Source: an uncultured Oscillospiraceae bacterium
GTDB lineage: Bacteria; Bacillota; Clostridia; Christensenellales; CAG-314
DNA: 32,323 bases
NCBI GenBank assembly: GCA_964483825.1
Contig: CAZADD010000005.1
Location: 1-32,323 of the forward strand
Reading direction: 5' to 3'
Under the pieces are notes generated by a model. It was not told where the DNA came from, made no database searches, and saw only the letters and a program-made list of their open reading frames with translations. Numbering within the stretch: position 1 is the stretch's first letter; every line of letters starts with the position of its first letter. The position numbers and the translations under genes are program-made. Shown here piece by piece: positions 1,566 to 17,966 of this stretch.

Positions 1566-1670
1566 GTTTTTGCGGCAACGGCTTTCCCTACCGTTCAACT
1601 TGAACAAAAATTCACTACAACACAAAACGGAGCCAAAAAACGGCTCCGTTTTTTTGAATGGTTGATGAAT
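1566..1670. repeat. 105-bp direct repeat, copy 1 (contains a rho-independent terminator); second copy at 3186-3290
   Basis: Near-identical sequence TTTTTGCGGCAACGGCTTTC..ACCGTTCAACTTGAACAAAAATTCACTACAACACAAAACGGAGC..AAAAAACGGCTCCGTTTTTTTGAATGGTTGATGAAT at both sites; flanks diverge immediately outside. Confidence 0.85.
1625..1657 (+). terminator. rho-independent terminator of oxidoreductase gene
   Basis: Stem AAACGGAGCC / GGCTCCGTTT with A-rich loop, followed by T7 run. Confidence 0.75.
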
Positions 1671-2021
1671 TATGATTTGAGGCACACGCAAACAAAACAG
1701 TTGTTGTTTGCAAAACACGAAAACCGTGTCATTGATAGGAACAAAACCACCTCGCATCACATGGCTGTTTGAAAAATGCGGCTAAACAGGCCGCCAAACT
1801 CCAGTTTAATACTGTTGCCAACAGCGTGAAAATGGTTTTTTACGGCGAGCGGTCACCGTTGATACTGTCGCCGCAAAAAACCAAGTCGCCAATAATATGC
1901 GCGTGATGATTCGGAATGAGCACGCCCCTAGAATACATCCAACTTATCCTTGACAGCGACTTGAAAGGAACACCAAGAGCCCCAAGTCACCACCCTAACG
2001 GATGGCGGCTTAGGTTCCTTT

Positions 2022-2915
2022 TTAGTCTTGCAAAATTTTTAGATATTTATCCAATCTCGCATTGATATATTCCGCAAAGAGTTTTTCCATAGCGGACAAA
2101 TTGTGCTTTGCATGGTATTCGTCAAACGCATTGTAGTAAGCCAAGCGATCCGTGAACTTAATGTCAATGGGCGGAAATCCGGCTTTCATAAGTTCCAAAT
2201 TAACAAGCAATCGGCCCGTTCTTCCGTTACCGTCAATGAATGGATGAATACCTTCAAATTCAATGTGAAAACGGGCCAATTTTGTTACAACGTGTTCTTT
2301 GCTTTCGGCAAAGTCGCGCAAAAGCTGCTCTATCTTTTCTTGAATGAGATACGGCTCGGTCGGCTCGTGCTGTGCGCCCATGATGCGAACGGGAACTTTG
2401 CGGTATACGCCTCGATCGTCCTTCTTGTCCGCAAGAACAAGATAGTGAATTTCTTTGATTACACGCTCGCTGATGGGCACGTTGTTTACCACAAGCTCTC
2501 GAACATATTCAAACGCCTCTTTGTGGCCCACCGCTTCCATGTGATCTTTCAGTGGTTTGCGGTCGACGGTTAGCCCCCTGAGAACCAAATCGGTTTCACG
2601 CAAGGTCAGCGTGTTGCCCTCAATGGCGTTGGAATTGTAGGTGTATTCAACGGCAAATTCTTCGTTCAAGCGTTCCGCTTCCCCCTCGGTCAGCGGTCTG
2701 CGACTGTCAAGTTCCGCCTTTTTTTTGTCTATTTGTGCAAGAATGCTCTCTTGAGATTTGTACCTTCCGTCCGACGGTTTTTCCGCATCGGCAGGAATTT
2801 TCCACCCGCGCCCCTCTTGAAACGCTCCCGAAATTTTACCCTCGGCACAAAGCACGCGAACTCTCCTTTCGGAAACGCCCCACTTTTCCGCAGCTCTTTT
2901 AACAGTCATGAACAT
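2022..2915 (-). CDS. Fic/Doc family protein (AMPylator-type) with N-terminal HTH and intramolecular inhibitory helix motif
   Basis: 297 aa. Canonical Fic motif HPFIDGNGRTGR. Upstream SNAIEGN matches the (S/T)xxxE(G/N) inhibitory motif. N-terminal MTVKRAAEKWGVSERRVRVLCAEGKISGA resembles an excisionase/MerR-like HTH. Confidence 0.9.
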   Translation of the reverse strand: MFMTVKRAAEKWGVSERRVRVLCAEGKISGAFQEGRGWKIPADAEKPSDGRYKSQESILAQIDKKKAELDSRRPLTEGEAERLNEEFAVEYTYNSNAIEGNTLTLRETDLVLRGLTVDRKPLKDHMEAVGHKEAFEYVRELVVNNVPISERVIKEIHYLVLADKKDDRGVYRKVPVRIMGAQHEPTEPYLIQEKIEQLLRDFAESKEHVVTKLARFHIEFEGIHPFIDGNGRTGRLLVNLELMKAGFPPIDIKFTDRLAYYNAFDEYHAKHNLSAMEKLFAEYINARLDKYLKILQD

Positions 2916-2973
2916 GCTCGTTATTCCTCCCGTTCGTGTTTATTATACCACACTTTCGGAACAATATCAATAG

Positions 2974-3009
2974 TAGCGGAATAATATTTTGCAAATTAGC
3001 GGAATAATA
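2974..3009 (-). promoter_or_regulatory. two 13-bp direct repeats TAGCGGAATAATA (about 23 bp centre to centre) upstream of fic; candidate operator in promoter region
   Basis: Exact 13-mer repeated at ~2974-2986 and ~2997-3009, 60-95 bp upstream of the fic start codon (2915). The Fic protein carries its own HTH. Confidence 0.35.
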
Positions 3010-3185
3010 GCTCTTGTTGGAGTATCTTTCCGTCGGGTACGGATATAAAAAACCGTGCAACGTACAAGCCAAGAACGTTGCGCTTTTTGTGCGTGCAAAC
3101 GACATCTTTTTCATGCTTGAAGTACAAAGCAATAGTTTTACAAGTATCTTGCCGCTTGTTTTCCGCTAGACGAACAGTTTTTTTC

Positions 3186-3290
3186 TTTTTGCGGCAACGG
3201 CTTTCGGCACCGTTCAACTTGAACAAAAATTCACTACAACACAAAACGGAGCAGAAAAAACGGCTCCGTTTTTTTGAATGGTTGATGAAT
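3186..3290. repeat. 105-bp direct repeat, copy 2 (with terminator hairpin ~3245-3278)
   Basis: About 95% identical to 1566-1670; together they bracket the fic gene. Confidence 0.85.
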
Positions 3291-3421: not shown

Positions 3422-4006
3422 GTGTTTTGGGAAAATTTGTCGCTTCTTGCGAAAATTTTGTTTTGCACCGGCATTGGCTCCACCGCCATTTTGCTGATAC
3501 AGATAATTTTGATGATAATCGGCTTTGCCGGCGATGCTTTCGGCGACGTTGACGTAGACATCGATGCCGACGGCGACGTGGATTTGGACGGTGCCGGCGA
3601 CGGAATAGGTTTGTTCACCATAAAAGGCCTTGTTGCATTCTTTTCCATAGGCAGTTGGACGGGTTTTGCAATGGACGTTTCCGGTTGCAACGAAGTGCTT
3701 TCCGTTTGCATTGCCGTGCTTGTGGGGGCGGCCGCACTTGTGGGCGTAGGCTTTTTGTACAAAGCGTTGAACAAGTTGCAATCCAACGGCAATTTGAACA
3801 TGGCCAACGCCATCGGAAAAACCGCCGAAGTGTATCTCACCGTTCCTGCAAACAATTCCGGCACAGGCAAAGTAACGCTGGAAGTTCAGGAAAAGTTTGT
3901 GGAAGCAACGGCTCGCACCACCGCCGAAAACGCCATTCCAACGGGATCGATAGTTAAAGTTGTGGATACCGTTAACGGCGAACTGATAGTAGAATTAAGT
4001 AAATAA
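3422..4006 (+). CDS. NfeD-like membrane protein (YuaF/YqiJ type, C-terminal OB-fold), flotillin partner
   Basis: 194 aa. N-terminal TM helices, acidic DVDVDIDADGDVDLDGAGDG stretch, C-terminal beta-rich domain. GTG start with GGAGG RBS. Immediately upstream of the flotillin gene with a 15-bp gap. Confidence 0.8.
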   Translation: MFWENLSLLAKILFCTGIGSTAILLIQIILMIIGFAGDAFGDVDVDIDADGDVDLDGAGDGIGLFTIKGLVAFFSIGSWTGFAMDVSGCNEVLSVCIAVLVGAAALVGVGFLYKALNKLQSNGNLNMANAIGKTAEVYLTVPANNSGTGKVTLEVQEKFVEATARTTAENAIPTGSIVKVVDTVNGELIVELSK

Positions 4007-4021
4007 CAGGAGGTAACAACT

Positions 4022-5458
4022 ATGCTCAACATTTTTGCAACCATCACCAGCGGAGCGATAGCCGGCATTGTAGTGGCGGCCGTTCTCGTTTTAACGTCGA
4101 TATTTTTGATGTTCCTTTCTCGCTACAAAAAGTGCCCGTCGGATAAAATAATGGTTATCTACGGCAAAATCGGCAAAAACAGCGACGGTACGTCTCGCAG
4201 CGCAAAATGTATTCACGGCGGCGCCGCATTTATCGTGCCGGTTATTCAAGCGCACGCATTTTTGGATTTGACCCCCATTTCCATCAGCGTGGACCTTCGC
4301 AACGCCCTTTCCAAACAAAACATTCGTGTTGACGTTCCGTCCCGATTCACCGTTGGTATTTCCACCGAACCGGGCATCATGCAAAACGCCGCCGAACGCC
4401 TTTTGGGGCTTTCGTTGAACGAAATTCAAGAGTTGGCAAAAGATATAATTTTGGGCCAATTGCGTTTGGTTATTGCAACGATGGAAATTGAAGAAATCAA
4501 CAACGACAGAGACAAATTTTTGGAAGCCGTTTCTCGCAACGTGGAAACGGAATTGAAAAAGATTGGTTTGCGCCTTATCAACGTTAACGTAACGGATATC
4601 AGCGACGAAAGCGGCTACATCAGCGCACTTGGTAAAGAAGCGGCAGCAAAAGCTATCAACGCTGCAAAAATTTCCGTTGCCGAAGCGGACAAAGAAGGTT
4701 CTATCGGTGCCGCAAACGCATTGAGAGAGCAAAGAATAATGGTTTCGCAAGCGGAAGCGGAAGCCATTAAGGGCGAAAACGACGCAAAGGCGGAAATTGC
4801 AACTGCGCAAGCAACGTTGAGAGAAAAGGAAGCCGAAGCAACCAAAATTGCCACCGTTGCGGAAAAGACCAAGAGTGCGGAAGCGTTGGAAGAATCCTAC
4901 TCGGCGGAAAAACTTGCCGAACAAGCCCGTGCCGCCCGTGACCAAGCAACTTTGGAAGCCGACGTAATTGTCAAAACGGATATTGAAAAACGCCGCAGAG
5001 AAATAGATGCCGAAGCCGAAGCGGAACAAATTCGCCGCAGAGCACAAGGTGAAGCGGACGCAATCTACGCAAAACTGGAAGCACAAGCACGCGGCGTGAA
5101 AGCGTTGTTGGATAACCAAGCGCAAGGTTATGCGGAAATTGTTAAGGCTGCCGGCGGCGACGCAAACGCTGCAATGCGCTTGATGATAACGGACAAAATG
5201 GAAAGCCTTGTCAAAACGCAAGTTGAAGCAATCAAAAACATCAAAATTGACAAAATCACCGTGTGGGATTCCGGCAAGGGCGAAGACGGCAAAACATCCA
5301 CTGCAAACTTTTTATCCGGACTTTTGCAAAGCTTGCCCCCGATGACGGACCTTTTCGACATGGCCGGCTTGCAACTTCCCGAAGTTTTGAACGCGCAAAA
5401 GAAAGTTGAAGAACCCCCTAAAACAGAAGACAACACAGAAATCAAAACAGAAGAATAG
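4022..5458 (+). CDS. floT: flotillin-family SPFH domain protein (FloT/YuaG-like)
   Basis: 478 aa. N-terminal TM segment, SPFH core, long Ala/Glu-rich coiled-coil (EA repeats) typical of flotillins. GGAGG RBS. Operon with NfeD as in B. subtilis yuaF-floT. Confidence 0.88.
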   Translation: MLNIFATITSGAIAGIVVAAVLVLTSIFLMFLSRYKKCPSDKIMVIYGKIGKNSDGTSRSAKCIHGGAAFIVPVIQAHAFLDLTPISISVDLRNALSKQNIRVDVPSRFTVGISTEPGIMQNAAERLLGLSLNEIQELAKDIILGQLRLVIATMEIEEINNDRDKFLEAVSRNVETELKKIGLRLINVNVTDISDESGYISALGKEAAAKAINAAKISVAEADKEGSIGAANALREQRIMVSQAEAEAIKGENDAKAEIATAQATLREKEAEATKIATVAEKTKSAEALEESYSAEKLAEQARAARDQATLEADVIVKTDIEKRRREIDAEAEAEQIRRRAQGEADAIYAKLEAQARGVKALLDNQAQGYAEIVKAAGGDANAAMRLMITDKMESLVKTQVEAIKNIKIDKITVWDSGKGEDGKTSTANFLSGLLQSLPPMTDLFDMAGLQLPEVLNAQKKVEEPPKTEDNTEIKTEE

Positions 5459-13112: not shown

Positions 13113-13247
13113 TTAAGCGGAAAGAGAGTGACGACCCTTGTTTCTTCTTCTTGCAAGCGTTCTGCGTCCGCCGGTGGTTTTCATTCTTGCGCGGAATCCG
13201 TGCACTTTGCTTCTTTGTCTTTTCTTGGGTTGATAGGTTCTTTTCAT
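13113..13247 (-). CDS. rpmH: 50S ribosomal protein L34
   Basis: [44 protein letters not shown] is a near-canonical L34. Start trimmed to the internal ATG, which has an AAGAAGGAG RBS. Confidence 0.92.
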
Positions 13248-13539
13248 GATATTCTCCTTCTTATGCGCCCTAAGCGCGTTATAGTAGTGGTTTTTGCTTG
13301 GCAAAAAAGTGCAAAACGCCCACTTCCCACCATAGCATTCGTTTTATTTTAACAAATAGCAAAACATAAGTCAAGTGTTTGCGCAACAACGGCACCACAA
13401 CAACCAATAACTTTTTGCAAGGGGCTTTTCCGTATTTTGTTGCGATGTTGAATACACCAAACTCAAGTTTTGGAGAAAAAGAAAGCTGGCACAGTAGGAT
13501 ACTTTTTGTGAATTTGTACATCTTTTAGATAAGTATAAT

Positions 13540-13960
13540 GAAAAAATATTTTGCACACAAATTTCTTTCTAACCCACCAACAAGGTAGTGTTAATAAAAC
13601 GGAATATTGCAATATGTTGTGGTTCACAAAGGCTCCCCTAACGTGCCTCAACTCTTCACTCGGCTGCACAGCAGCCACTTGGCTCCTTTGTGTAAAGAGA
13701 GCTGGAAGCGACTTCGTCGCAGTTAAAAGATAAGAGAGAAAAGAGAAAAGAAAAGGATACATTTTTTGAAATCTGAATAGTTGTTTTTGACAAATAGACT
13801 AGAAAAAATAGTTTTTTTCGTCAATTTTTACTAAAGGCACCATTTTTTGCTATTCACTATTACTTTTTCATTCGGTTACGTCAATACCCCTCTCAGTCAC
13901 CTGCGGTGCCAGCTCTCCCCAAGGGGCGAGCCAAGTGAGATAATTGCCCAATTGTGAAGC
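13540..13960. repeat. mosaic intergenic repeat cluster (family shared with 21540-21780, 22700-22900 and 26380-27180)
   Basis: Contains AAAAATATTTTGCACACAAATTT, CGACTTCGTCGC(C)AGTTAAAAGATAAGAGAGAAAAGAGAAAAGAAA, TTTTTGACAAATAGACTAG...TCGTCAATTTTTACTAAAG and CCCTCTCAGTCACCTGCGGTGCCAGCTCTCCCCAAGGGGCGAGCCAAG modules, all recurring elsewhere in the window. Confidence 0.8.
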
Positions 13961-14153
13961 TTGTGAGGATAAAACCGGTTTTCAACCAACCCGACAACCC
14001 AAGAAACTACACAAGTTTCTTATCCTGTCCCTTTTTCTTTTCACTCGTGCGGTTTGTTGCCCAAGTCGCCATTGACATCGGACGGCGACAATGATATACT
14101 GTTGTCAAACTCAAACACGGCACAATCTTTGGCGAAAACACACGGAGCAAACT

Positions 14154-15404
14154 ATGTCATCGTACAACGAACTAATAAAAAACTTTGAAAAGATACGGAC
14201 ATATATGCGTGATTTCTACCTTTTTGGGTTCAAAAGCCGTGACGACTATCAGGCAAAAAGCGCACGCTCCTACGACGACGAACGGCGAAGGCTGGAAAGC
14301 TGGCTGGGCGATCACATGAGTTTCGTGCGCACGGCGGAAGGCAAAAACGTTTTTATTTCCATCGACAGCCGTTCCATCAAGCACAATCCGCTTTACAACG
14401 CTTGGAAAGCCAAAAGTTTCACCGACGGCGACGTCACTTTGCACTTCGTTATTTTTGATATTTTGTGCAATTCGTCCGTAAAGCGCACCACTTCGGAACT
14501 GATGGACGAAATTGATGCCTACCTTGCCGATTTTCGCCAACCGATGCTTTTGGACGAATCCACCGTTCGCAAAAAACTGAAAGAATACTGCGAGGCCGGC
14601 ATTATCGTGGCGGAAAAAGTCGGGCGCAAAATTTACTATCGCCGGGCGGAGGACGACGAAACGCACCTGAACGACGTGTTGCACTTCTTTTCGGAAATTG
14701 CCCCTTGCGGCGTGATAGGTTCGTTTTTGTTGGATAAACAATCCGCCCACGACGACGCATTTTCCTTCAAACATCACTACATAACAGGTGCTTTGGATAG
14801 TGACGTTTTGGCAACGCTTTTTGTCGCCATGCGAGAACAGCGCATTGTTTCCGTAAGCAACAACAACCATCGCAAGGACGTTCCGCGGCGCAGTCGCATT
14901 GTGCCGCTAAGAGTGTTTGCAAGCGTGCAAAACGGAAGGCAACACCTTTTGGCATACGTACCGGAAGGAAACTGCTTCACATCCTACCGCATCGACTACC
15001 TTTCCAACATCAAGCTAGAAGAACAAACGCCCCGTTTTTGCGAACTTAGGCAGCAACTGGACGAAATTCAAACCAAAATGTGGGGCGTAAGCATCAAGCG
15101 CAACAGCCGTGGCGAAGACCGTTTGGAACATGTGGAATTCACCGTGAAAGTTGCCGAAAACGAGCAATACATCGTGCGGCGGCTGCAACGGGAAAAGCGT
15201 GTGGGAACGGTGGAAAAACTGGACGAAAACATCTACCGTTTTTCGGCGAACGTGTACGACAGCACAGAAATGATACCTTGGATACGCACCTTTATTTGCC
15301 GCATAACGCAACTTAACTTTTCCAACCGCAATGTTGAAAACCAATTCAAAAAGGACGTTGACGCAATGTGCCGCCTGTACGGCGTGAAAGGGGGCGAACA
15401 ATGA
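14154..15404 (+). CDS. WYL-domain transcriptional regulator (winged HTH + WYL-like + C-terminal extension), long N-terminal region
   Basis: wHTH-like segment TSELMDEIDAYLADFRQPMLLDESTVRKKLKEYCEAGIIVAEKVGRKIYY. WYL-like segment RIVPLRVFASVQNGRQHLLAYVPEGNCFTSYRIDYLSNI. Start placed at the internal ATG (MSSYNEL); a longer ORF from 14091 is possible. Confidence 0.7.
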   Translation: MSSYNELIKNFEKIRTYMRDFYLFGFKSRDDYQAKSARSYDDERRRLESWLGDHMSFVRTAEGKNVFISIDSRSIKHNPLYNAWKAKSFTDGDVTLHFVIFDILCNSSVKRTTSELMDEIDAYLADFRQPMLLDESTVRKKLKEYCEAGIIVAEKVGRKIYYRRAEDDETHLNDVLHFFSEIAPCGVIGSFLLDKQSAHDDAFSFKHHYITGALDSDVLATLFVAMREQRIVSVSNNNHRKDVPRRSRIVPLRVFASVQNGRQHLLAYVPEGNCFTSYRIDYLSNIKLEEQTPRFCELRQQLDEIQTKMWGVSIKRNSRGEDRLEHVEFTVKVAENEQYIVRRLQREKRVGTVEKLDENIYRFSANVYDSTEMIPWIRTFICRITQLNFSNRNVENQFKKDVDAMCRLYGVKGGEQ

Positions 15405-16312
15405 TTTTCAGTGAACTTTATTCCGCCTACTACAACACCGTTTCGGCAATTATTTCCGCCGTTTTGGACGGGGAAAACAACGAAAGAGAACTGCAAAAAA
15501 TAGTTGAAGAACATGCGTTTGGCGAAAGCGTACTCACCGTTTTGCCCAATTTGAAAAGCCAAAAATGGCAACTTTTGCGCACGGACGGCACAACGCCCAT
15601 CAAAAACAAACCGTCAATGCCGCTGACGACATTGCAAAAACAGTGGTTGAAAGCAATTTCGTTGGACCCGCGCATTCGGCTGTTTGACGAAACTTTCCCC
15701 AATTTGGAAGGTGTTGAGCCGCTGTTCACCCCGGACGACTTTCGCATTTACGATAAATACGGCGACGGCGACGATTTCGACAACCCTGAATACGTACGGC
15801 AATTTCGCGTTGTTTTGAACGCAATAAAACACGGCACTCAAATAAAGTTTGAAATGCCCAACCGCCGCGGCAACACCATGTTCGTGCGTTGCCGACCGTT
15901 AAGTTTGGAATATTCCCCAAAGGACGACAAATTCCGCGTCGTGATTGACGGCTGCCGTGCCGCAAGCGTAGTAAACCTTGCAAAAATCAGCCGTTGCGTT
16001 GCCTACGTGAGAGAAAAACCGCCCAACGGACGCTCGAAAAAGATTGTGCAAGACACCGTCACCGTTCAACTGACCAACTACCGAAACGCTTTAGAACGGT
16101 TCATGCTGCATTTTGCACACTTTGAAAAACAGGCGGAGCGGTTGGATAACAAACACTATCGAATAAAAATTCGCTACTTCCACGACGAAGAAGCGGACAT
16201 GGTGATACGAATTCTTTCCTTCGGGCCACTGGTAGAAGTGACCGAACCGTCTTCTTTCCGGAATTTGATAGTAGAAAAACTCAAAAAACAGCAAAACTGC
16301 GAACTCAAATGA
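15401..16312 (+). CDS. second WYL-like/WCX-like domain protein, translationally coupled (ATGA overlap) to the upstream WYL regulator
   Basis: Segments QIKFEMPNRRGNTMFVRCRPLSLEYSPKDDKFRVVIDGCRAASVVNLAKISRC and C-terminal HYRIKIRYFHDEEADMVIRILSFGPLVEVTEP resemble WYL plus the C-terminal extension. ATG at 15401 overlaps the TGA of the previous gene. Confidence 0.65.
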   Translation: MIFSELYSAYYNTVSAIISAVLDGENNERELQKIVEEHAFGESVLTVLPNLKSQKWQLLRTDGTTPIKNKPSMPLTTLQKQWLKAISLDPRIRLFDETFPNLEGVEPLFTPDDFRIYDKYGDGDDFDNPEYVRQFRVVLNAIKHGTQIKFEMPNRRGNTMFVRCRPLSLEYSPKDDKFRVVIDGCRAASVVNLAKISRCVAYVREKPPNGRSKKIVQDTVTVQLTNYRNALERFMLHFAHFEKQAERLDNKHYRIKIRYFHDEEADMVIRILSFGPLVEVTEPSSFRNLIVEKLKKQQNCELK

Positions 16313-16335
16313 GAGTTCGCAGCTTTTTTTCCGTG
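16296..16335 (+). terminator. rho-independent terminator overlapping the stop codon of the WYL pair
   Basis: 10-bp stem CTGCGAACTC / GAGTTCGCAG with the TGA stop in the loop, followed by T7. Confidence 0.75.
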
Positions 16336-16439
16336 AAAAACCAATAATTTGGCGGTAAAATACACTTGCAAGGTTGATTCACGCAAGTGCTTGACACAAA
16401 ACGTAACTGCGGTGCACCAGGATGTTCCAAAGTGTATGC

Positions 16440-16510
16440 CGAAAGAAACTTTGCGCGGTCGCAGGGCCCGAAAGCCCTCTCAACGCGGGTTCGAATCCCG
16501 CCTTAGCCAG
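16440..16510 (+). ncRNA. candidate structured RNA with tRNA-like T-arm (possible Y-RNA/YrlA-like or tRNA-derived att remnant)
   Basis: GCGGGTTCGAATCCCGC is a perfect tRNA T-stem-loop, preceded by hairpin AGGGCCCGAAAGCCCT and followed by CTTAGCCA plus a D-loop-like AGTGGATTGGTAG. No complementary 5' acceptor strand was found, so it is not a canonical tRNA. It lies in a 500-bp noncoding gap upstream of the SPFH-rtcB genes. Confidence 0.3.
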
Positions 16511-16808
16511 TGGATTGGTAGTGTTCAAAAGAACACAAAGGAATCGCACGCAACTGCGTGCACAAACAGTTTTTTTCACGACTATTCCAACGCCGTTCCG
16601 CCAATGTGCAACCTTTGAAAACTTGTTTTCCCCAAAGTTGCAAGGCAATGCGAACGCACGCTTTGCCCGAAAACGGATACCGCACGCTTCCCACCGTTGC
16701 CAAACAACACGTTCCGCAACGGGCAGAACGCGCTCAAGTTTTTGGCCGCTACGTTTTCATGAACGGTTGAGGAACCGACATTACTACCTTCAAGGAGGAT
16801 TACATATT

Positions 16809-17906
16809 ATGACAACGACAATCATCAATCAAAACCAAAAAGGATTTCTTTTCAAAAACGGAAAGTACGTTAAGTTGCTTGATGCCGGCAAGTACCGCTT
16901 GTTTGGCAAAGAAGTGGAAATTTCCGACTTCGATCAACCCATTTTTCCGCGCAAATGTGCGTTGGATACCTTGCTTCAAGACCAAAACGTGGCAAGCCAA
17001 GTAACCGTTGTGGAAGTGGCGGACGAACAACTTGCGTTGCACTACGTCAACGGCAACTTCGCCTCCGCTTTGCGCCAAGGCAAATATGCGTTTTGGAACG
17101 TTGTGGATAAGCACGAATTCAAAATTGTGGATATTTCCGATCCGACGGTGGACGAATCTATTTCGCCCTACGTGTTCACAAGAATTCCGCAAATCTACTA
17201 CACCAAGGCGGAAGTTGCAGAATACCAAAAGGGACTTTTGTACTTCAATCGCAAGTTTGTAAAGGTTTTGGAGCCCGGCACCTACTATTTTTGGAAAACA
17301 GCCGTGAAAGTGGACGTAGAATACGTTGACACACGCCTCACCCAAATGGACATTGCCGGCCAAGAAATTTTGACGGCGGATAAAGTTTCGTTGCGCATCA
17401 ACTTCACTTGCAACTACCGCATCACCGACTTTGTGAAAATAACCACGGAAGTGGACGACTTTGCCGAACACTTGCACGTTGCAGCACAACTGGCGTTGCG
17501 TGAATACGTGGGCAAGTACAAGCTGGACGAAATTTTGGAAAACAAGGACGAAATTTCCCAATTCGTGTTTGAAAAATTGAAAGAATGCGAAAAGGACTTG
17601 TTTGTGGAAATAACGTCCGCCGGCGTGAAAGATGTTATTTTGCCGGGCGAAATCCGCGAAATAATGAACACCGTTCTGATTGCGGAAAAACGCGCGCAAG
17701 CCAACGTCATCACTCGCCGTGAAGAGGTTGCTTCCACTCGTTCTTTGTTGAACACCGCAAAACTTATGGACGAAAACCAAACGTTGTACAAACTGAAAGA
17801 ATTGGAATACGTGGAACGCATTTGCGAAAACGTGGGCAACATTTCCTTGAACGGAAACGGGGATATTCTTTCTCAACTGACAAAAATACTGGGTGGCAAA
17901 GCCTAA
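16809..17906 (+). CDS. cytoplasmic SPFH/band-7 (stomatin/prohibitin-like) domain protein with triplicated N-terminal beta-hairpin motif
   Basis: 366 aa. AAGGAGGA RBS. SPFH core (ILTADKVSLRINFTCNYRI...ILPGEIREIMNTVLIAEKRAQ). No TM segment. Three N-terminal repeats of a GxLxxNGKyVKvLepGkYxFW-type motif. Start placed at the internal ATG; the upstream ORF extension lacks an RBS. Confidence 0.8.
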   Translation: MTTTIINQNQKGFLFKNGKYVKLLDAGKYRLFGKEVEISDFDQPIFPRKCALDTLLQDQNVASQVTVVEVADEQLALHYVNGNFASALRQGKYAFWNVVDKHEFKIVDISDPTVDESISPYVFTRIPQIYYTKAEVAEYQKGLLYFNRKFVKVLEPGTYYFWKTAVKVDVEYVDTRLTQMDIAGQEILTADKVSLRINFTCNYRITDFVKITTEVDDFAEHLHVAAQLALREYVGKYKLDEILENKDEISQFVFEKLKECEKDLFVEITSAGVKDVILPGEIREIMNTVLIAEKRAQANVITRREEVASTRSLLNTAKLMDENQTLYKLKELEYVERICENVGNISLNGNGDILSQLTKILGGKA

Positions 17907-17966
17907 CCTCGCGTGCGGCAAGCGTTGTCACCCAAAACAAATCGAGCCGCACGTAAAGGAGTATTT

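What the first reader, a model, noticed from the sequence alone, without database searches (positions are those of the whole stretch)
13305..14153. Modular intergenic repeat family clustered around rpmH and dnaA
At least five noncoding blocks (13540-13960, 21540-21780, 22600-22900, 26380-27180 and fragments at 27090-27190) are built from the same shuffled modules. These are a polypurine tract (CGACTTCGTCGCCAGTTAAAAGATAAGAGAGAAAAGAGAAAAGAAA), a TTTTTGACAAATAG..CTAG..AAAAAATAGTTT..TCGTCAATTTTTACTAAAG block, CTTCACTATTCAC-type short repeats, and an inverted CCCTCTCAGTCACC / GGTGACTGAGGG pair able to form long hairpins. They occupy exactly the regions where oriC and DnaA boxes would normally sit. 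Function is unknown; options include REP/BOX-like elements, regulatory RNA or an insertion hotspot.
Basis: seen in the sequence. Interest (0 to 1): 0.6.

Follow-up and report, generated by a model that had tools for sequence, protein, structure and literature searches.

The report
Mosaic of mobile double-hairpin repeats
Four non-coding stretches near dnaA and rpmH in an uncultured Clostridia genome are patchworks of short repeated modules whose core is a 50-base double-hairpin element that also litters human-gut phage genomes, so this is REP/MITE-like repeat DNA at an insertion hotspot, not a replication origin.

Summary
Four non-coding blocks (13.5-14.0, 21.5-21.8, 22.6-22.9 and 26.4-27.2 kb) share shuffled modules with BLAST E-values of 1e-5 to 1e-48, and no coding region does.

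The modules are of two kinds.
- **Double-hairpin unit.** This is a GC-rich unit of about 50 nt, CCCTCTCAGT-[variable hairpin]-CAG-CTCTCCC-loop-GGGAGAG-CCAAG. The window holds five full and three truncated copies, in both orientations. A covariance model finds 206 more copies in 658 kb of gut viral contigs and an inverted doublet on a Fusobacteriota plasmid. It finds none in 621 kb of unrelated control loci. Both hairpins covary strongly.
- **AT-rich filler.** This comprises 7-nt-periodic purine (GAGAAAA) and pyrimidine (TCTTCAC) arrays, a GCGAC-TTC-GTCGC hairpin, a TTGACA block and a 50-nt block. I found these only in this species.

A strain with 96-99% identical flanks differs by whole modules. 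Sister species lack the modules and also lack the 9.5-kb WYL-RtcB island that the modules flank.

The blocks contain no DnaA-box cluster, the GC skew does not turn, and Rfam gives no match.

Best reading: a REP/BIME/NIME-like mosaic of non-autonomous mobile hairpin elements at a recombination hotspot. The enzyme that moves them and their copy number in the rest of this genome remain untested.

The parts
13541..13591 (+). 'U' module, copy 1 (AAAAAATATTTTGCACACAAATTT...)
   Evidence: 90% identical to 26640-26688, E 1.4e-12. No match in viral contigs.
13651..13705 (+). CTCTTCAC heptamer, then the GGCTGC-ACA-GCAGCC hairpin, then a truncated double-hairpin unit (hairpin 2 only, reverse orientation)
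   Evidence: Weak R1 match at 13675-13740(-), 12.9 bits. 96% identical to 26852-26876.
13706..13836 (+). M1+T module, copy 1: GCGAC-TTC-GTCGC hairpin, purine heptamer array (AAAAGAG x3.9) and the TTGACA block
   Evidence: 133 nt, 92% identical to 21571-21703, E 7e-48. TRF period 7.
13843..13885 (+). Pyrimidine-rich heptamer tract (TATTCAC-type) leading into a unit ('M2' left half)
   Evidence: the repeat finder D6, 3 copies: 13843, 26457, 27074.
13886..13937 (+). Double-hairpin unit, full copy, forward orientation
   Evidence: R1 63 bits, E 9e-17. The segment carrying it (13843-14030) has no counterpart where close-strain contig L095 joins its M1+T-type copy to window 14031.
21543..21570 (-). 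Truncated unit (hairpin 2 GCTCTC/GAGAGC only)
   Evidence: R1 18.9 bits, E 6e-4. 96% identical to 26783-26805.
21571..21703 (+). M1+T module, copy 2
21712..21780 (+). CTTCAC-type heptamer arrays (TCTTCAC TTTTCAC TATTCAC; CCTCTTCAC)
   Evidence: TRF period 7. The repeat finder D5 and D7..
22598..22652 (-). Double-hairpin unit, variant subtype (CACGGC-loop-GCCGTG hairpin 1)
   Evidence: R1 41.7 bits, E 1.4e-10. Conserved in close strain L080 at 3991-4045. 92% identical to phage contig L108.
22724..22882 (+). CTTCACN x3.9 heptamer array and further TCTTCAC copies, running up to the promoter at 22903-22931
   Evidence: TRF..
26396..26433 (-). Inverted, degenerate M1 (heptamers plus the GCGACTTCGTCG hairpin)
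   Evidence: the repeat finder I3 and I4, 76% complementary to 21573-21610 and 26907-26944.
26457..26499 (+). Pyrimidine heptamer tract ('M2', copy 2)
   Evidence: 93.5% identical to 27069-27130.
26500..26552 (+). Double-hairpin unit, full copy, forward orientation
   Evidence: R1 58.2 bits, E 2e-15.
26550..26640 (+). M1 copy 3 (GCGACTGCGTCGC plus purine array) and a degenerate T block
   Evidence: 88-90% identical to 13708-13749 and 21573-21631.
26640..26688 (+). 'U' module, copy 2
26727..26790 (+). Heptamers (TATTCAC TCTTCAC) plus a GC hairpin
   Evidence: 91% identical to 13651-13685.
26780..26831 (-). Double-hairpin unit, full copy, reverse orientation. With 26500-26552 it forms the long inverted pair.
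   Evidence: R1 74 bits, E 6e-20. 92-98% identical to units in 8 IMG/VR contigs.
26848..26902 (-). Double-hairpin unit, variant subtype, reverse orientation
   Evidence: R1 39.5 bits, E 6e-10. 90% identical to phage contigs L108, L133 and L175.
26905..26956 (+). M1 copy 4 (hairpin plus purine heptamer array AGATAAA x4.4)
   Evidence: 92-94% identical to 13706-13756 and 21571-21619. TRF.
27005..27116 (+). CTTCAC-type heptamer arrays and 'M2' copy 3
27117..27181 (.). Termini-only derivative: CCCTCTCAGTC ... GACTGAGAGGG (11-nt inverted ends) around an unrelated 40-nt core
   Evidence: Read directly. Weak R1 matches on both strands. Conserved in L080.

Best explanation
The blocks are intergenic mosaic repeat regions of the REP/BIME/NIME type.

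Their active ingredient is a GC-rich unit of about 50 nt. It has a conserved 5' tract (CCCTCTCAGT), a first hairpin whose sequence varies but whose pairing is kept, and a second hairpin (CTCTCCC / GGGAGAG) followed by CCAAG.

The unit behaves as a non-autonomous, horizontally spreading element. Its boundaries are sharp. Its GC content does not follow the host's. It occurs singly, in tandem and as inverted doublets in gut phage genomes and in a Fusobacteriota plasmid. It is present or absent between close relatives.

In this genome, copies have accumulated in a variable stretch between dnaA and rpmH. There they are embedded in species-specific AT-rich filler: 7-nt purine and pyrimidine arrays, a small GCGAC hairpin, a TTGACA block and a U block.

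Inference: unequal recombination or slippage between these repeated modules then shuffles them and creates whole-module indels between strains. It probably also helped cargo such as the 9.5-kb WYL-RtcB island to enter.

Shown: the repeats, the unit family and its structure, its distribution, the strain polymorphism, and the absence of modules from sister species.

Inferred: mobility as DNA, possibly as single-stranded hairpins handled in trans by a HUH/Y1-type or other transposase, and the role of the repeats as recombination substrates. Any benefit to the host, such as 3'-end RNA hairpins or insulation between transcription units, is secondary and unproven.
For: - Repeats are confined to non-coding blocks.
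- Covariance model R1, built from 14 copies, finds 5 full and 3 partial units in the window, all inside the blocks.
- R1 finds 206 units at E<=1e-3 in 658 kb of IMG/VR loci. Those loci came from a scan with the pattern CTCAGTCACN{7,13}GTGMCAGCTCYC, which gave 93 stretches.
- R1 finds none in 621 kb of unrelated loci and none in sister-species loci.
- The loci that carry units encode terminase, portal and other phage proteins.
- Hits also occur in 18 human-faecal phage records and as an inverted doublet between thiG and thiH on the Haliovirga abyssi plasmid.
- Unit identity is 85-98% between a 45% GC host and 55-65% GC contigs, and the flanking sequences are unrelated.
- Covariation: 93.8% of cells are paired. 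There are 191 double-change cells against 58 +/- 5 in shuffles, and at most 14 when the partner columns are slid.
- Units are enriched outside ORFs: 47% lie outside, against about 10% non-coding sequence. They favour gene 3' ends, with 20 between convergent and 4 between divergent neighbours.
- Three cases among related phage contigs show presence or absence: an extra partial unit in one contig, a unit-bearing ~70-nt segment missing from its relatives, and a 48-nt length difference inside a conserved ORF.
- The close strain (flanks 96-99% identical) lacks 13843-14030 and about 26434-27046, and carries an extra hairpin where the window has a truncated unit. The L080 junction shares no 31-mer with the window, so it is not a graph collapse.
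- Sister species lack both the modules and the island.
Against: - The rest of this genome could not be searched. Copy number and dispersal in this organism are therefore unknown.
- No transposase, RAYT or integrase lies in the window or recurs in the unit-bearing loci.
- No target-site duplication or consistent target sequence was seen.
- The AT-rich modules have no relatives elsewhere and could be plain local duplications.
- Two of the four blocks lie between divergent promoters, unlike the 3'-end bias seen in phages.
- The covariation alignments were fitted to the model. The unit-bearing phage loci are partly redundant, with 112 distinct sequences among the 150 aligned.
Confidence: 0.6

Rival explanations
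1. The hairpin units work at the RNA level. They would act as 3'-end stabilisers, terminators or insulators, or as intercistronic processing signals, as E. coli REPs do. The mosaics would then be regulatory spacers kept by selection.
For: - Both hairpins covary strongly.
- In phage contigs, units often sit directly after stop codons or between co-directional genes ahead of the next ribosome-binding site. They favour convergent over divergent gene pairs, 20 to 4.
- Block 4 lies between the terminator of the 1622-aa gene and the dnaA promoter.
Against: - No U-tract follows the hairpins.
- Units occur in both orientations relative to their neighbours, 17 sense and 12 antisense.
- G.U pairs (15) do not outnumber A.C pairs (29), so no transcribed strand is favoured.
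- Two blocks lie between divergent promoters, where no transcript is expected.
- Rfam gives no match.
Confidence: 0.2
2. The 7-nt arrays (TCTTCAC / GAGAAAA) are arrays of protein-binding sites. They could belong to oriC, to a partition centromere bound by a ribbon-helix-helix protein (as with the 7-bp heptads of the omega protein of pSM19035), or to operators of the adjacent WYL regulators. The hairpins would be incidental.
For: - The period is exactly 7 nt in several arrays.
- The arrays show a strong strand and position bias.
- TCTTCACTCG tracts sit just upstream of both near-consensus promoters at 14072 and 22903.
- The locus is next to dnaA.
- DnaA-box-like 9-mers are enriched across the whole window, 21 found against 6 expected.
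Against: - Only two DnaA-box-like sites fall in the blocks, and they do not cluster.
- The GC skew has no turning point.
- Sister species with the same gene order have no such arrays.
- Array length and composition differ between close strains.
- No ParA/ParB or ribbon-helix-helix gene lies nearby.
Confidence: 0.1
3. The blocks are passive scars. Segmental duplications and illegitimate recombination at an insertion hotspot copied one ancestral spacer several times, and neither the modules nor the units are mobile in this genome.
For: - The AT-rich modules are found only at this locus and in this species.
- The 133-nt direct repeats bracket the island.
- Other direct-repeat-flanked cassettes occur on the same contig, namely the Fic gene and the 145-nt repeats after dnaA.
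Against: - This does not explain the near-identical 50-nt units, with unrelated flanks, in phages of very different GC content and in another phylum.
- It does not explain units in both orientations, or the unit-level presence/absence differences.
Confidence: 0.08
4. The repeats are a MAG assembly artefact, produced by a chimeric or mis-joined repeat graph.
For: The contig is a 32-kb MAG contig. Repeats often sit at the ends of other contigs.
Against: Independent Logan contigs from another sample reproduce 22560-22980 at 97.4%, 26097-26516 at 96.7%, 27047-27211 at 96% and the M1+T module upstream of the WYL gene.
Confidence: 0.02

Closest known systems
REP / REPIN elements and BIMEs of Enterobacteria and Pseudomonas (mobilised by RAYT Y1 transposases)
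   Same: - Short, GC-rich imperfect palindromes with a conserved 5' tract.
- Extragenic, with a bias towards gene 3' ends.
- Found singly, in tandem and as inverted doublets.
- Clusters combine with other short motifs into mosaics (BIMEs).
- Hairpin pairing is maintained by compensatory change.
   Different: - No sequence similarity.
- The unit has two hairpins plus a pyrimidine mirror repeat.
- It occurs in Clostridia, their phages and a Fusobacteriota plasmid, and appears to move horizontally. REPINs are mostly inherited vertically.
- No RAYT was found, and the host genome was not available to search for one.
- Copy number in this genome is unknown.
Neisseria intergenic mosaic elements (NIMEs: RS units bounded by dRS3 inverted repeats) and Correia elements
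   Same: - Intergenic mosaics of shuffled modules of tens of bases, separated by short inverted repeats.
- Located at variable loci next to cargo or surface-protein genes.
- Thought to act as recombination or integration substrates.
   Different: - Unrelated sequences and a different phylum.
- No phage integrase target was shown here.
- The 7-nt simple-sequence arrays are not a feature of NIMEs.
BOX elements of Streptococcus pneumoniae (boxA-boxB(n)-boxC)
   Same: - Modular build from a few module types, with variable numbers and order.
- Intergenic.
- Predicted stable secondary structure.
- A Firmicutes host.
   Different: - No sequence similarity.
- BOX has a fixed A-B-C order. Here the order is shuffled, and the units are shared with phages of other taxa.
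Rickettsia palindromic elements (RPEs) and MITEs in general
   Same: - Small, non-autonomous palindromic elements.
- One unit-bearing segment adds 48 nt, keeping the reading frame, inside a conserved phage ORF.
- Doublets and the 27117-27181 derivative carry 11-nt inverted ends.
   Different: No target-site duplication and no matching autonomous IS were seen. Most copies are single units without terminal inverted repeats.

Membership tests
REP/REPIN-RAYT | Short imperfect palindrome with a conserved 5' flanking motif | tested here: met
   A conserved CCCTCTCAGT tract precedes hairpin 1. There are two hairpins, with 93.8% of cells paired and strong covariation.
REP/REPIN-RAYT | Tens to hundreds of extragenic copies per genome | not testable with these tools
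   Only this 32-kb contig of the genome is available. It holds 8 copies, all within 13.7 kb. In the unit-bearing phage loci the density is 0.31 per kb.
REP/REPIN-RAYT | Predominantly inverted doublets (REPINs) with fixed spacing | tested here: inconclusive
   Doublets occur in L104, L101 and L201 (Haliovirga), and as the pair 26500/26780 in the window. Many copies are single or tandem.
REP/REPIN-RAYT | A cognate RAYT (Y1 transposase) gene flanked by REPs in the same genome | not testable with these tools
   None in the window and none among the recurrent proteins of unit-bearing loci. The rest of the genome is unavailable.
BIME/NIME-type intergenic mosaic | Clusters of palindromic units in both orientations, interleaved with a small set of other short motifs in variable order | tested here: met
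   See the module maps of the four blocks. Units lie on + and - strands, interleaved with M1, T, U and heptamer modules in differing order.
MITE | Terminal inverted repeats plus a target-site duplication | tested here: not met
   11-nt inverted ends appear only in doublets and in 27117-27181. Aligned flanks and filled/empty site pairs show no TSD.
oriC | A cluster of DnaA boxes with an AT-rich unwinding element, at a GC-skew switch | tested here: not met
   Two boxes with at most one mismatch lie in the blocks, unclustered. The cumulative skew falls monotonically. The modules are absent from orthologous spacers of sister species.
Any Rfam RNA family | A covariance-model match at or near the gathering score | tested here: not met
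   No gathering-level hit in the window. Only chance-level hits at E<=1-5 in the blocks and in four unit-bearing phage loci.
Pneumococcal BOX | boxA, boxB and boxC sequences in A-B(n)-C order | not tested
   No BOX reference sequence was compared here. The module order differs between the four blocks, which does not fit a fixed A-B-C layout. Only the modular principle is shared.

The most novel reading that the evidence does not exclude
The 50-nt unit may be a previously undescribed, cross-phylum mobile element of anaerobe genomes and their phages. Its conserved pyrimidine mirror repeat is CCCTCTC ... CTCTCCC, with the matching purine arm GGGAGAG.

That mirror repeat could let the single strand fold into a hairpin clamped by a short Py.Pu-Py triple helix, or into an equivalent base-triple recognition structure like the guide/cleavage-site triples of IS608. 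This fold would be what its unknown mobilising enzyme recognises.

Clusters of such units would then serve as portable recombination sites through which cargo enters chromosomes. Candidate cargo includes the WYL-RtcB island, the NfeD-SPFH pair in L104 and the Fic cassette.
Probability: 0.1. Interest if true: 0.75.

Novelty: new member of a known kind. Interest (0 to 1): 0.45.

Why it matters
Interspersed hairpin repeats are well studied in Proteobacteria. I know of few descriptions for gut Clostridia and their phages, and four literature searches here found none.

This unit is abundant in human-gut viral contigs. It crosses large GC and phylum boundaries and can even sit in frame inside a phage gene. 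It is absent from Rfam.

- **Practical value.** A model of the unit would flag spurious ORFs and assembly breakpoints in gut metagenomes. It would also mark horizontally exchanged DNA.
- **Mechanistic value.** Finding the mobilising enzyme would extend the REP/RAYT picture, or a new one, to Firmicutes and phages.
- **For this locus.** The repeat-rich spacers beside dnaA should not be annotated as oriC. The dnaA-rpmH interval in this lineage is a hotspot for cargo insertion.

Tried and rejected
- **Genome-collection scan.** I spent the only scan on the polypurine/hairpin module (GCGACTKCGTCGN{1,2}AGNNAAAAR). It gave 79 stretches, all chance hits or an unrelated Paraburkholderia repeat. Two Fibrobacter MAG loci shared only a 21-nt hairpin.
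- **Metagenome and viral scans.** The same module gave one chance hit in JGI metagenomes and three in viral contigs. Viral scans for the U block, the T block, the M2-unit junction and the purine array all gave 0 hits.
- **Exact-protein look-ups.** Look-ups for DnaA, YidC and Fic to find the source genome failed. The cluster look-up showed the window is a whole NCBI contig.
- **Spurious-ORF search.** A protein search with a spurious ORF spanning the modules, meant to find other loci, returned nothing. Pfam and NCBIfam have no family for translated units.
- **Rfam.** Gathering and E-value modes gave only chance hits.
- **oriC.** I rejected this from the DnaA-box scan in the window and in sister loci.
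- **sRNA promoter in the TTGACA block.** I rejected this as unproven. TTGACA-16-TAGTTT fails the promoter scan, and the copy at 26608-26640 has lost it.
- **Literature.** Searches by sequence string and by REP/MITE plus Clostridia/Fusobacteria terms found no description of the unit.
- **Orientation analysis.** A first crude ORF-based analysis in high-GC loci was uninformative. I replaced it with a greedy gene cover.
- **Logan collapse.** I considered that the close-strain deletions were k=31 graph collapses. I rejected this for the 26434-27046 and 13843-14030 differences, because the junctions lack shared 31-mers and carry their own sequence. The question stays open for the 145-nt repeat after dnaA.
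Full report
**Context.** The window is a complete 32,323-nt NCBI contig. It comes from an uncultured Clostridia-type bacterium. Its DnaA is 75-92% identical to proteins labelled Clostridiales or Clostridia MAG.

The gene map comes from Pfam and translations:
- jag, yidC, yidD, rnpA and rpmH lie on the minus strand. rpmH is at 13113-13247.
- Block 1 follows, at 13248-14153.
- A plus-strand operon comes next: WYL, WYL/WCX, SPFH and RtcB (14154-19175).
- Then a DUF234 ATPase (minus strand) and a 3' fragment of RtcB (21037-21468).
- Block 2 follows.
- Then a SHOCT gene (21869-22444, minus strand).
- Block 3 follows.
- Then a conserved 310-aa gene with no Pfam match (22977-23909, plus strand) and dnaA (24732-26096, minus strand).
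- Block 4 is at 26097-27315.
- A 1622-aa surface glycoside hydrolase (minus strand) ends the contig.

The polypurine tract and the CTTCAC repeats are 7-nt tandem arrays (TRF). CTTCAC is about 22-fold enriched in the blocks, on the plus strand only. Perfect GC hairpins are about 3.5-fold enriched. Block 4 folds with z = -6.5 on the plus strand and -12.2 on the minus strand.

Independent Logan contigs from a close strain (sample SRR10277274) reproduce parts of blocks 1, 3 and 4. This rules out an artefact of this one assembly.

**Dissecting the modules.** The GC-rich pieces are all versions of one unit of about 50 nt: CCCTCTCAGT, hairpin 1, (A/C)CAG, then hairpin 2 (CTCTCCC-loop-GGGAGAG), then CCAAG. 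Hairpin 1 is, for example, GTCACC-TGC-GGTGAC or CACGGC-TCC-GCCGTG.

A viral-contig scan with a 24-base signature of the unit returned 8 contigs. The match stops sharply at the unit ends, and the flanks are unrelated and much richer in GC.

I built covariance model R1 from 14 copies. With filters off, it finds these in the window:
- Five full units: 13886-13937(+), 26500-26552(+), 26780-26831(-), 26848-26902(-) and 22598-22652(-).
- Three truncated or derived units: 21543-21570, 13675-13705 and 27117-27181.
- Nothing significant elsewhere.

A looser signature found 93 viral stretches. R1 finds 206 units in those 658 kb and none in 621 kb of unrelated loci.

The unit-bearing loci encode terminase, portal and other phage proteins. 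GenBank phage records with the unit are all human-faecal metagenomic phages. The single plasmid hit is an inverted doublet between thiG and thiH on the Haliovirga abyssi (Fusobacteriota) plasmid. It forms a GC-rich island in AT-rich DNA.

**Structure.** On 112 distinct copies, 93.8% of cells pair. There are 191 cells with compensatory double changes, against 58 +/- 5 in shuffles and at most 14 when partner columns are slid. The smaller set gives the same picture. These alignments are fitted to the model, which inflates pairing somewhat. Hairpin 1 nevertheless clearly changes sequence while keeping its stem.

G.U pairs (15) do not outnumber A.C pairs (29), so no RNA strand is favoured. Rfam has nothing for the unit.

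**Behaviour.** With a greedy gene cover, 47% of units lie mostly outside ORFs, against about 10% non-coding sequence. Convergent neighbours outnumber divergent ones 20 to 4.

Comparing related phage contigs gave three presence/absence cases:
- An extra partial unit bounded by GACTGAGAGG repeats.
- A unit-bearing segment of about 70 nt that is missing from relatives.
- A 48-nt length difference, which keeps the reading frame, inside a conserved ORF.

No target-site duplication was seen.

In this species, the close strain differs from the window as follows, while flanking genes are 96-99% identical:
- It lacks 13843-14030, which includes a full unit.
- It carries a hairpin 1 where the window's copy at 13675-13705 is truncated.
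- It lacks about 613 nt of pure modules (26434-27046).

The L080 junction shares no 31-mer with either parental site, so a de Bruijn graph collapse is unlikely.

**The AT-rich modules.** These are M1 (GCGAC-TTC-GTCGC plus the purine heptamers), the TTGACA block, the U block and the CTTCAC arrays. None has a match in GTDB representatives, JGI metagenomes or IMG/VR. The U block, TTGACA block and CTTCAC arrays were scanned only against IMG/VR. I treat all four as species-specific filler that has been copied together with the units.

The purine and pyrimidine arrays are imperfect complements of each other (repeat finder I3 and I4). This is why the blocks fold into long hairpins.

**Locus history.** Sister species (DnaA 85-91% identical) keep the order dnaN ... 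dnaA - 307-aa gene - rpmH-rnpA-yidD-yidC-jag. They have only about 0.3-0.5 kb between the 307-aa gene and rpmH. They have no modules or units.

The whole 13.4-22.9 kb segment of the window is therefore an insertion. Blocks 1 and 3 lie at its two edges, and block 2 lies at an internal junction. The 133-nt M1+T direct repeats bracket the WYL-RtcB part.

The same contig holds other cassettes flanked by direct repeats. Examples are the Fic gene, absent from the close strain, and the 145-nt repeats after dnaA. The sister species L081 has its own, unrelated periodic spacer repeats.

**Not oriC.** DnaA-box-like 9-mers are enriched across the window as a whole (21 found against 6 expected). Only two fall in the blocks, without clustering. 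Sister loci show no cluster either. The GC skew has no turning point. dnaA and rpmH are co-directional.

**Conclusion.** The blocks are REP/BIME/NIME-like mosaics. Their core is a widespread double-hairpin element that is apparently undescribed: it is absent from Rfam, and four literature searches found no description. I think it most likely that the unit is non-autonomous mobile DNA and that the mosaics are recombination-prone junk at an insertion hotspot (confidence about 0.6). An RNA-level role is the main rival (0.2).

**Unexplained.** The unit's 5' tract mirrors the pyrimidine arm of hairpin 2 and is the Hoogsteen-parallel match of the purine arm. One flank position co-varies with its pair. 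This may reflect subfamily descent, or it may reflect a triple-helix or base-triple recognition fold.

Noticed in passing
window 1567-1655 and 3186-3274, flanking 2022-2915: A Fic/HTH gene sits between ~90-nt direct repeats (87% identical), each ending in a terminator hairpin. The close strain (L203) lacks 1665-3185 and keeps one repeat copy, so this is a strain-specific cassette.
   Followed up: partly
window 23977-24121 and 24499-24643: 145-nt direct repeats (91% identical) with terminator-like hairpins lie downstream of dnaA. Close-strain contig L080 has a single copy. That could be a real deletion or a repeat collapse in the Logan assembly.
   Followed up: partly
window 21037-21468 vs 18950-19171: A 3' fragment of RtcB (143-aa ORF) duplicates the end of the intact RtcB gene at 89% identity. 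It lies after the inserted DUF234 ATPase gene.
   Followed up: no
window 13.4-22.9 kb: The WYL - WYL/WCX - SPFH - RtcB operon, the DUF234 ATPase and the SHOCT gene form a 9.5-kb insertion absent from sister species. In those species the 307-aa gene abuts rpmH.
   Followed up: partly
window 14034-14100 and 22850-22931: The two near-consensus promoters (TTGACA-17-TATACT with a TG extension) share the upstream layout TCTTCACTCG - about 22 nt of GC-rich sequence - CGCC(A)TTGACATC.
   Followed up: no
window 27212-27423 vs L080 371-571: The last ~110 nt of the 1622-aa surface-protein gene and ~95 nt after it are entirely different in the close strain, although the flanks are 96-99% identical.
   Followed up: no
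window, whole: DnaA-box-like 9-mers (TTATCCACA, at most 1 mismatch) are 3.5-fold over-represented (21 found against 6.0 +/- 2.2 expected). They are scattered, mostly inside genes. dnaA and rpmH are co-directional, and dnaN is not next to dnaA in this lineage.
   Followed up: partly
L081 16524-16816, 19689-19889, 2803-2918: The sister species has unrelated periodic spacer repeats. These are 22-nt units between jag and gidB, ~11-nt TTTTGTCTG units between gidA and trmE, and six 21-nt iteron-like repeats beside a restriction-modification system.
   Followed up: no
L010 2840-2960, L012 1150-1360 (Fibrobacter MAGs): An intergenic mosaic in a similar style: a GGCGACTTCGTCGC hairpin flanked by purine-rich 7-8-nt repeats and further GC hairpins. 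Only the 21-nt hairpin matches the window.
   Followed up: no
L003-L079 (Paraburkholderia sp. Tr-20389, 31 loci): An unrelated high-copy repeat containing GCGACTKCGTCG..AG..AAAA dominated the genome scan.
   Followed up: no
L124 809-861 and about 12 related phage loci; L171 11687-11737: A unit lies immediately after the stop of a giant ORF of about 3553 aa. In L171 a unit-bearing segment sits inside a conserved ORF, adding 48 nt and keeping the frame. L104 has inverted unit doublets on both sides of an NfeD-SPFH gene pair.
   Followed up: partly
alignment A4, columns 3-9 vs 89-95: There is a pyrimidine mirror repeat in the unit. The 5' tract CCCTCTC is the parallel Hoogsteen match of the purine arm GGGAGAG. 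Compatibility is 85.8% against 76.5% in shuffles, and one flank column co-varies with its base pair.
   Followed up: partly
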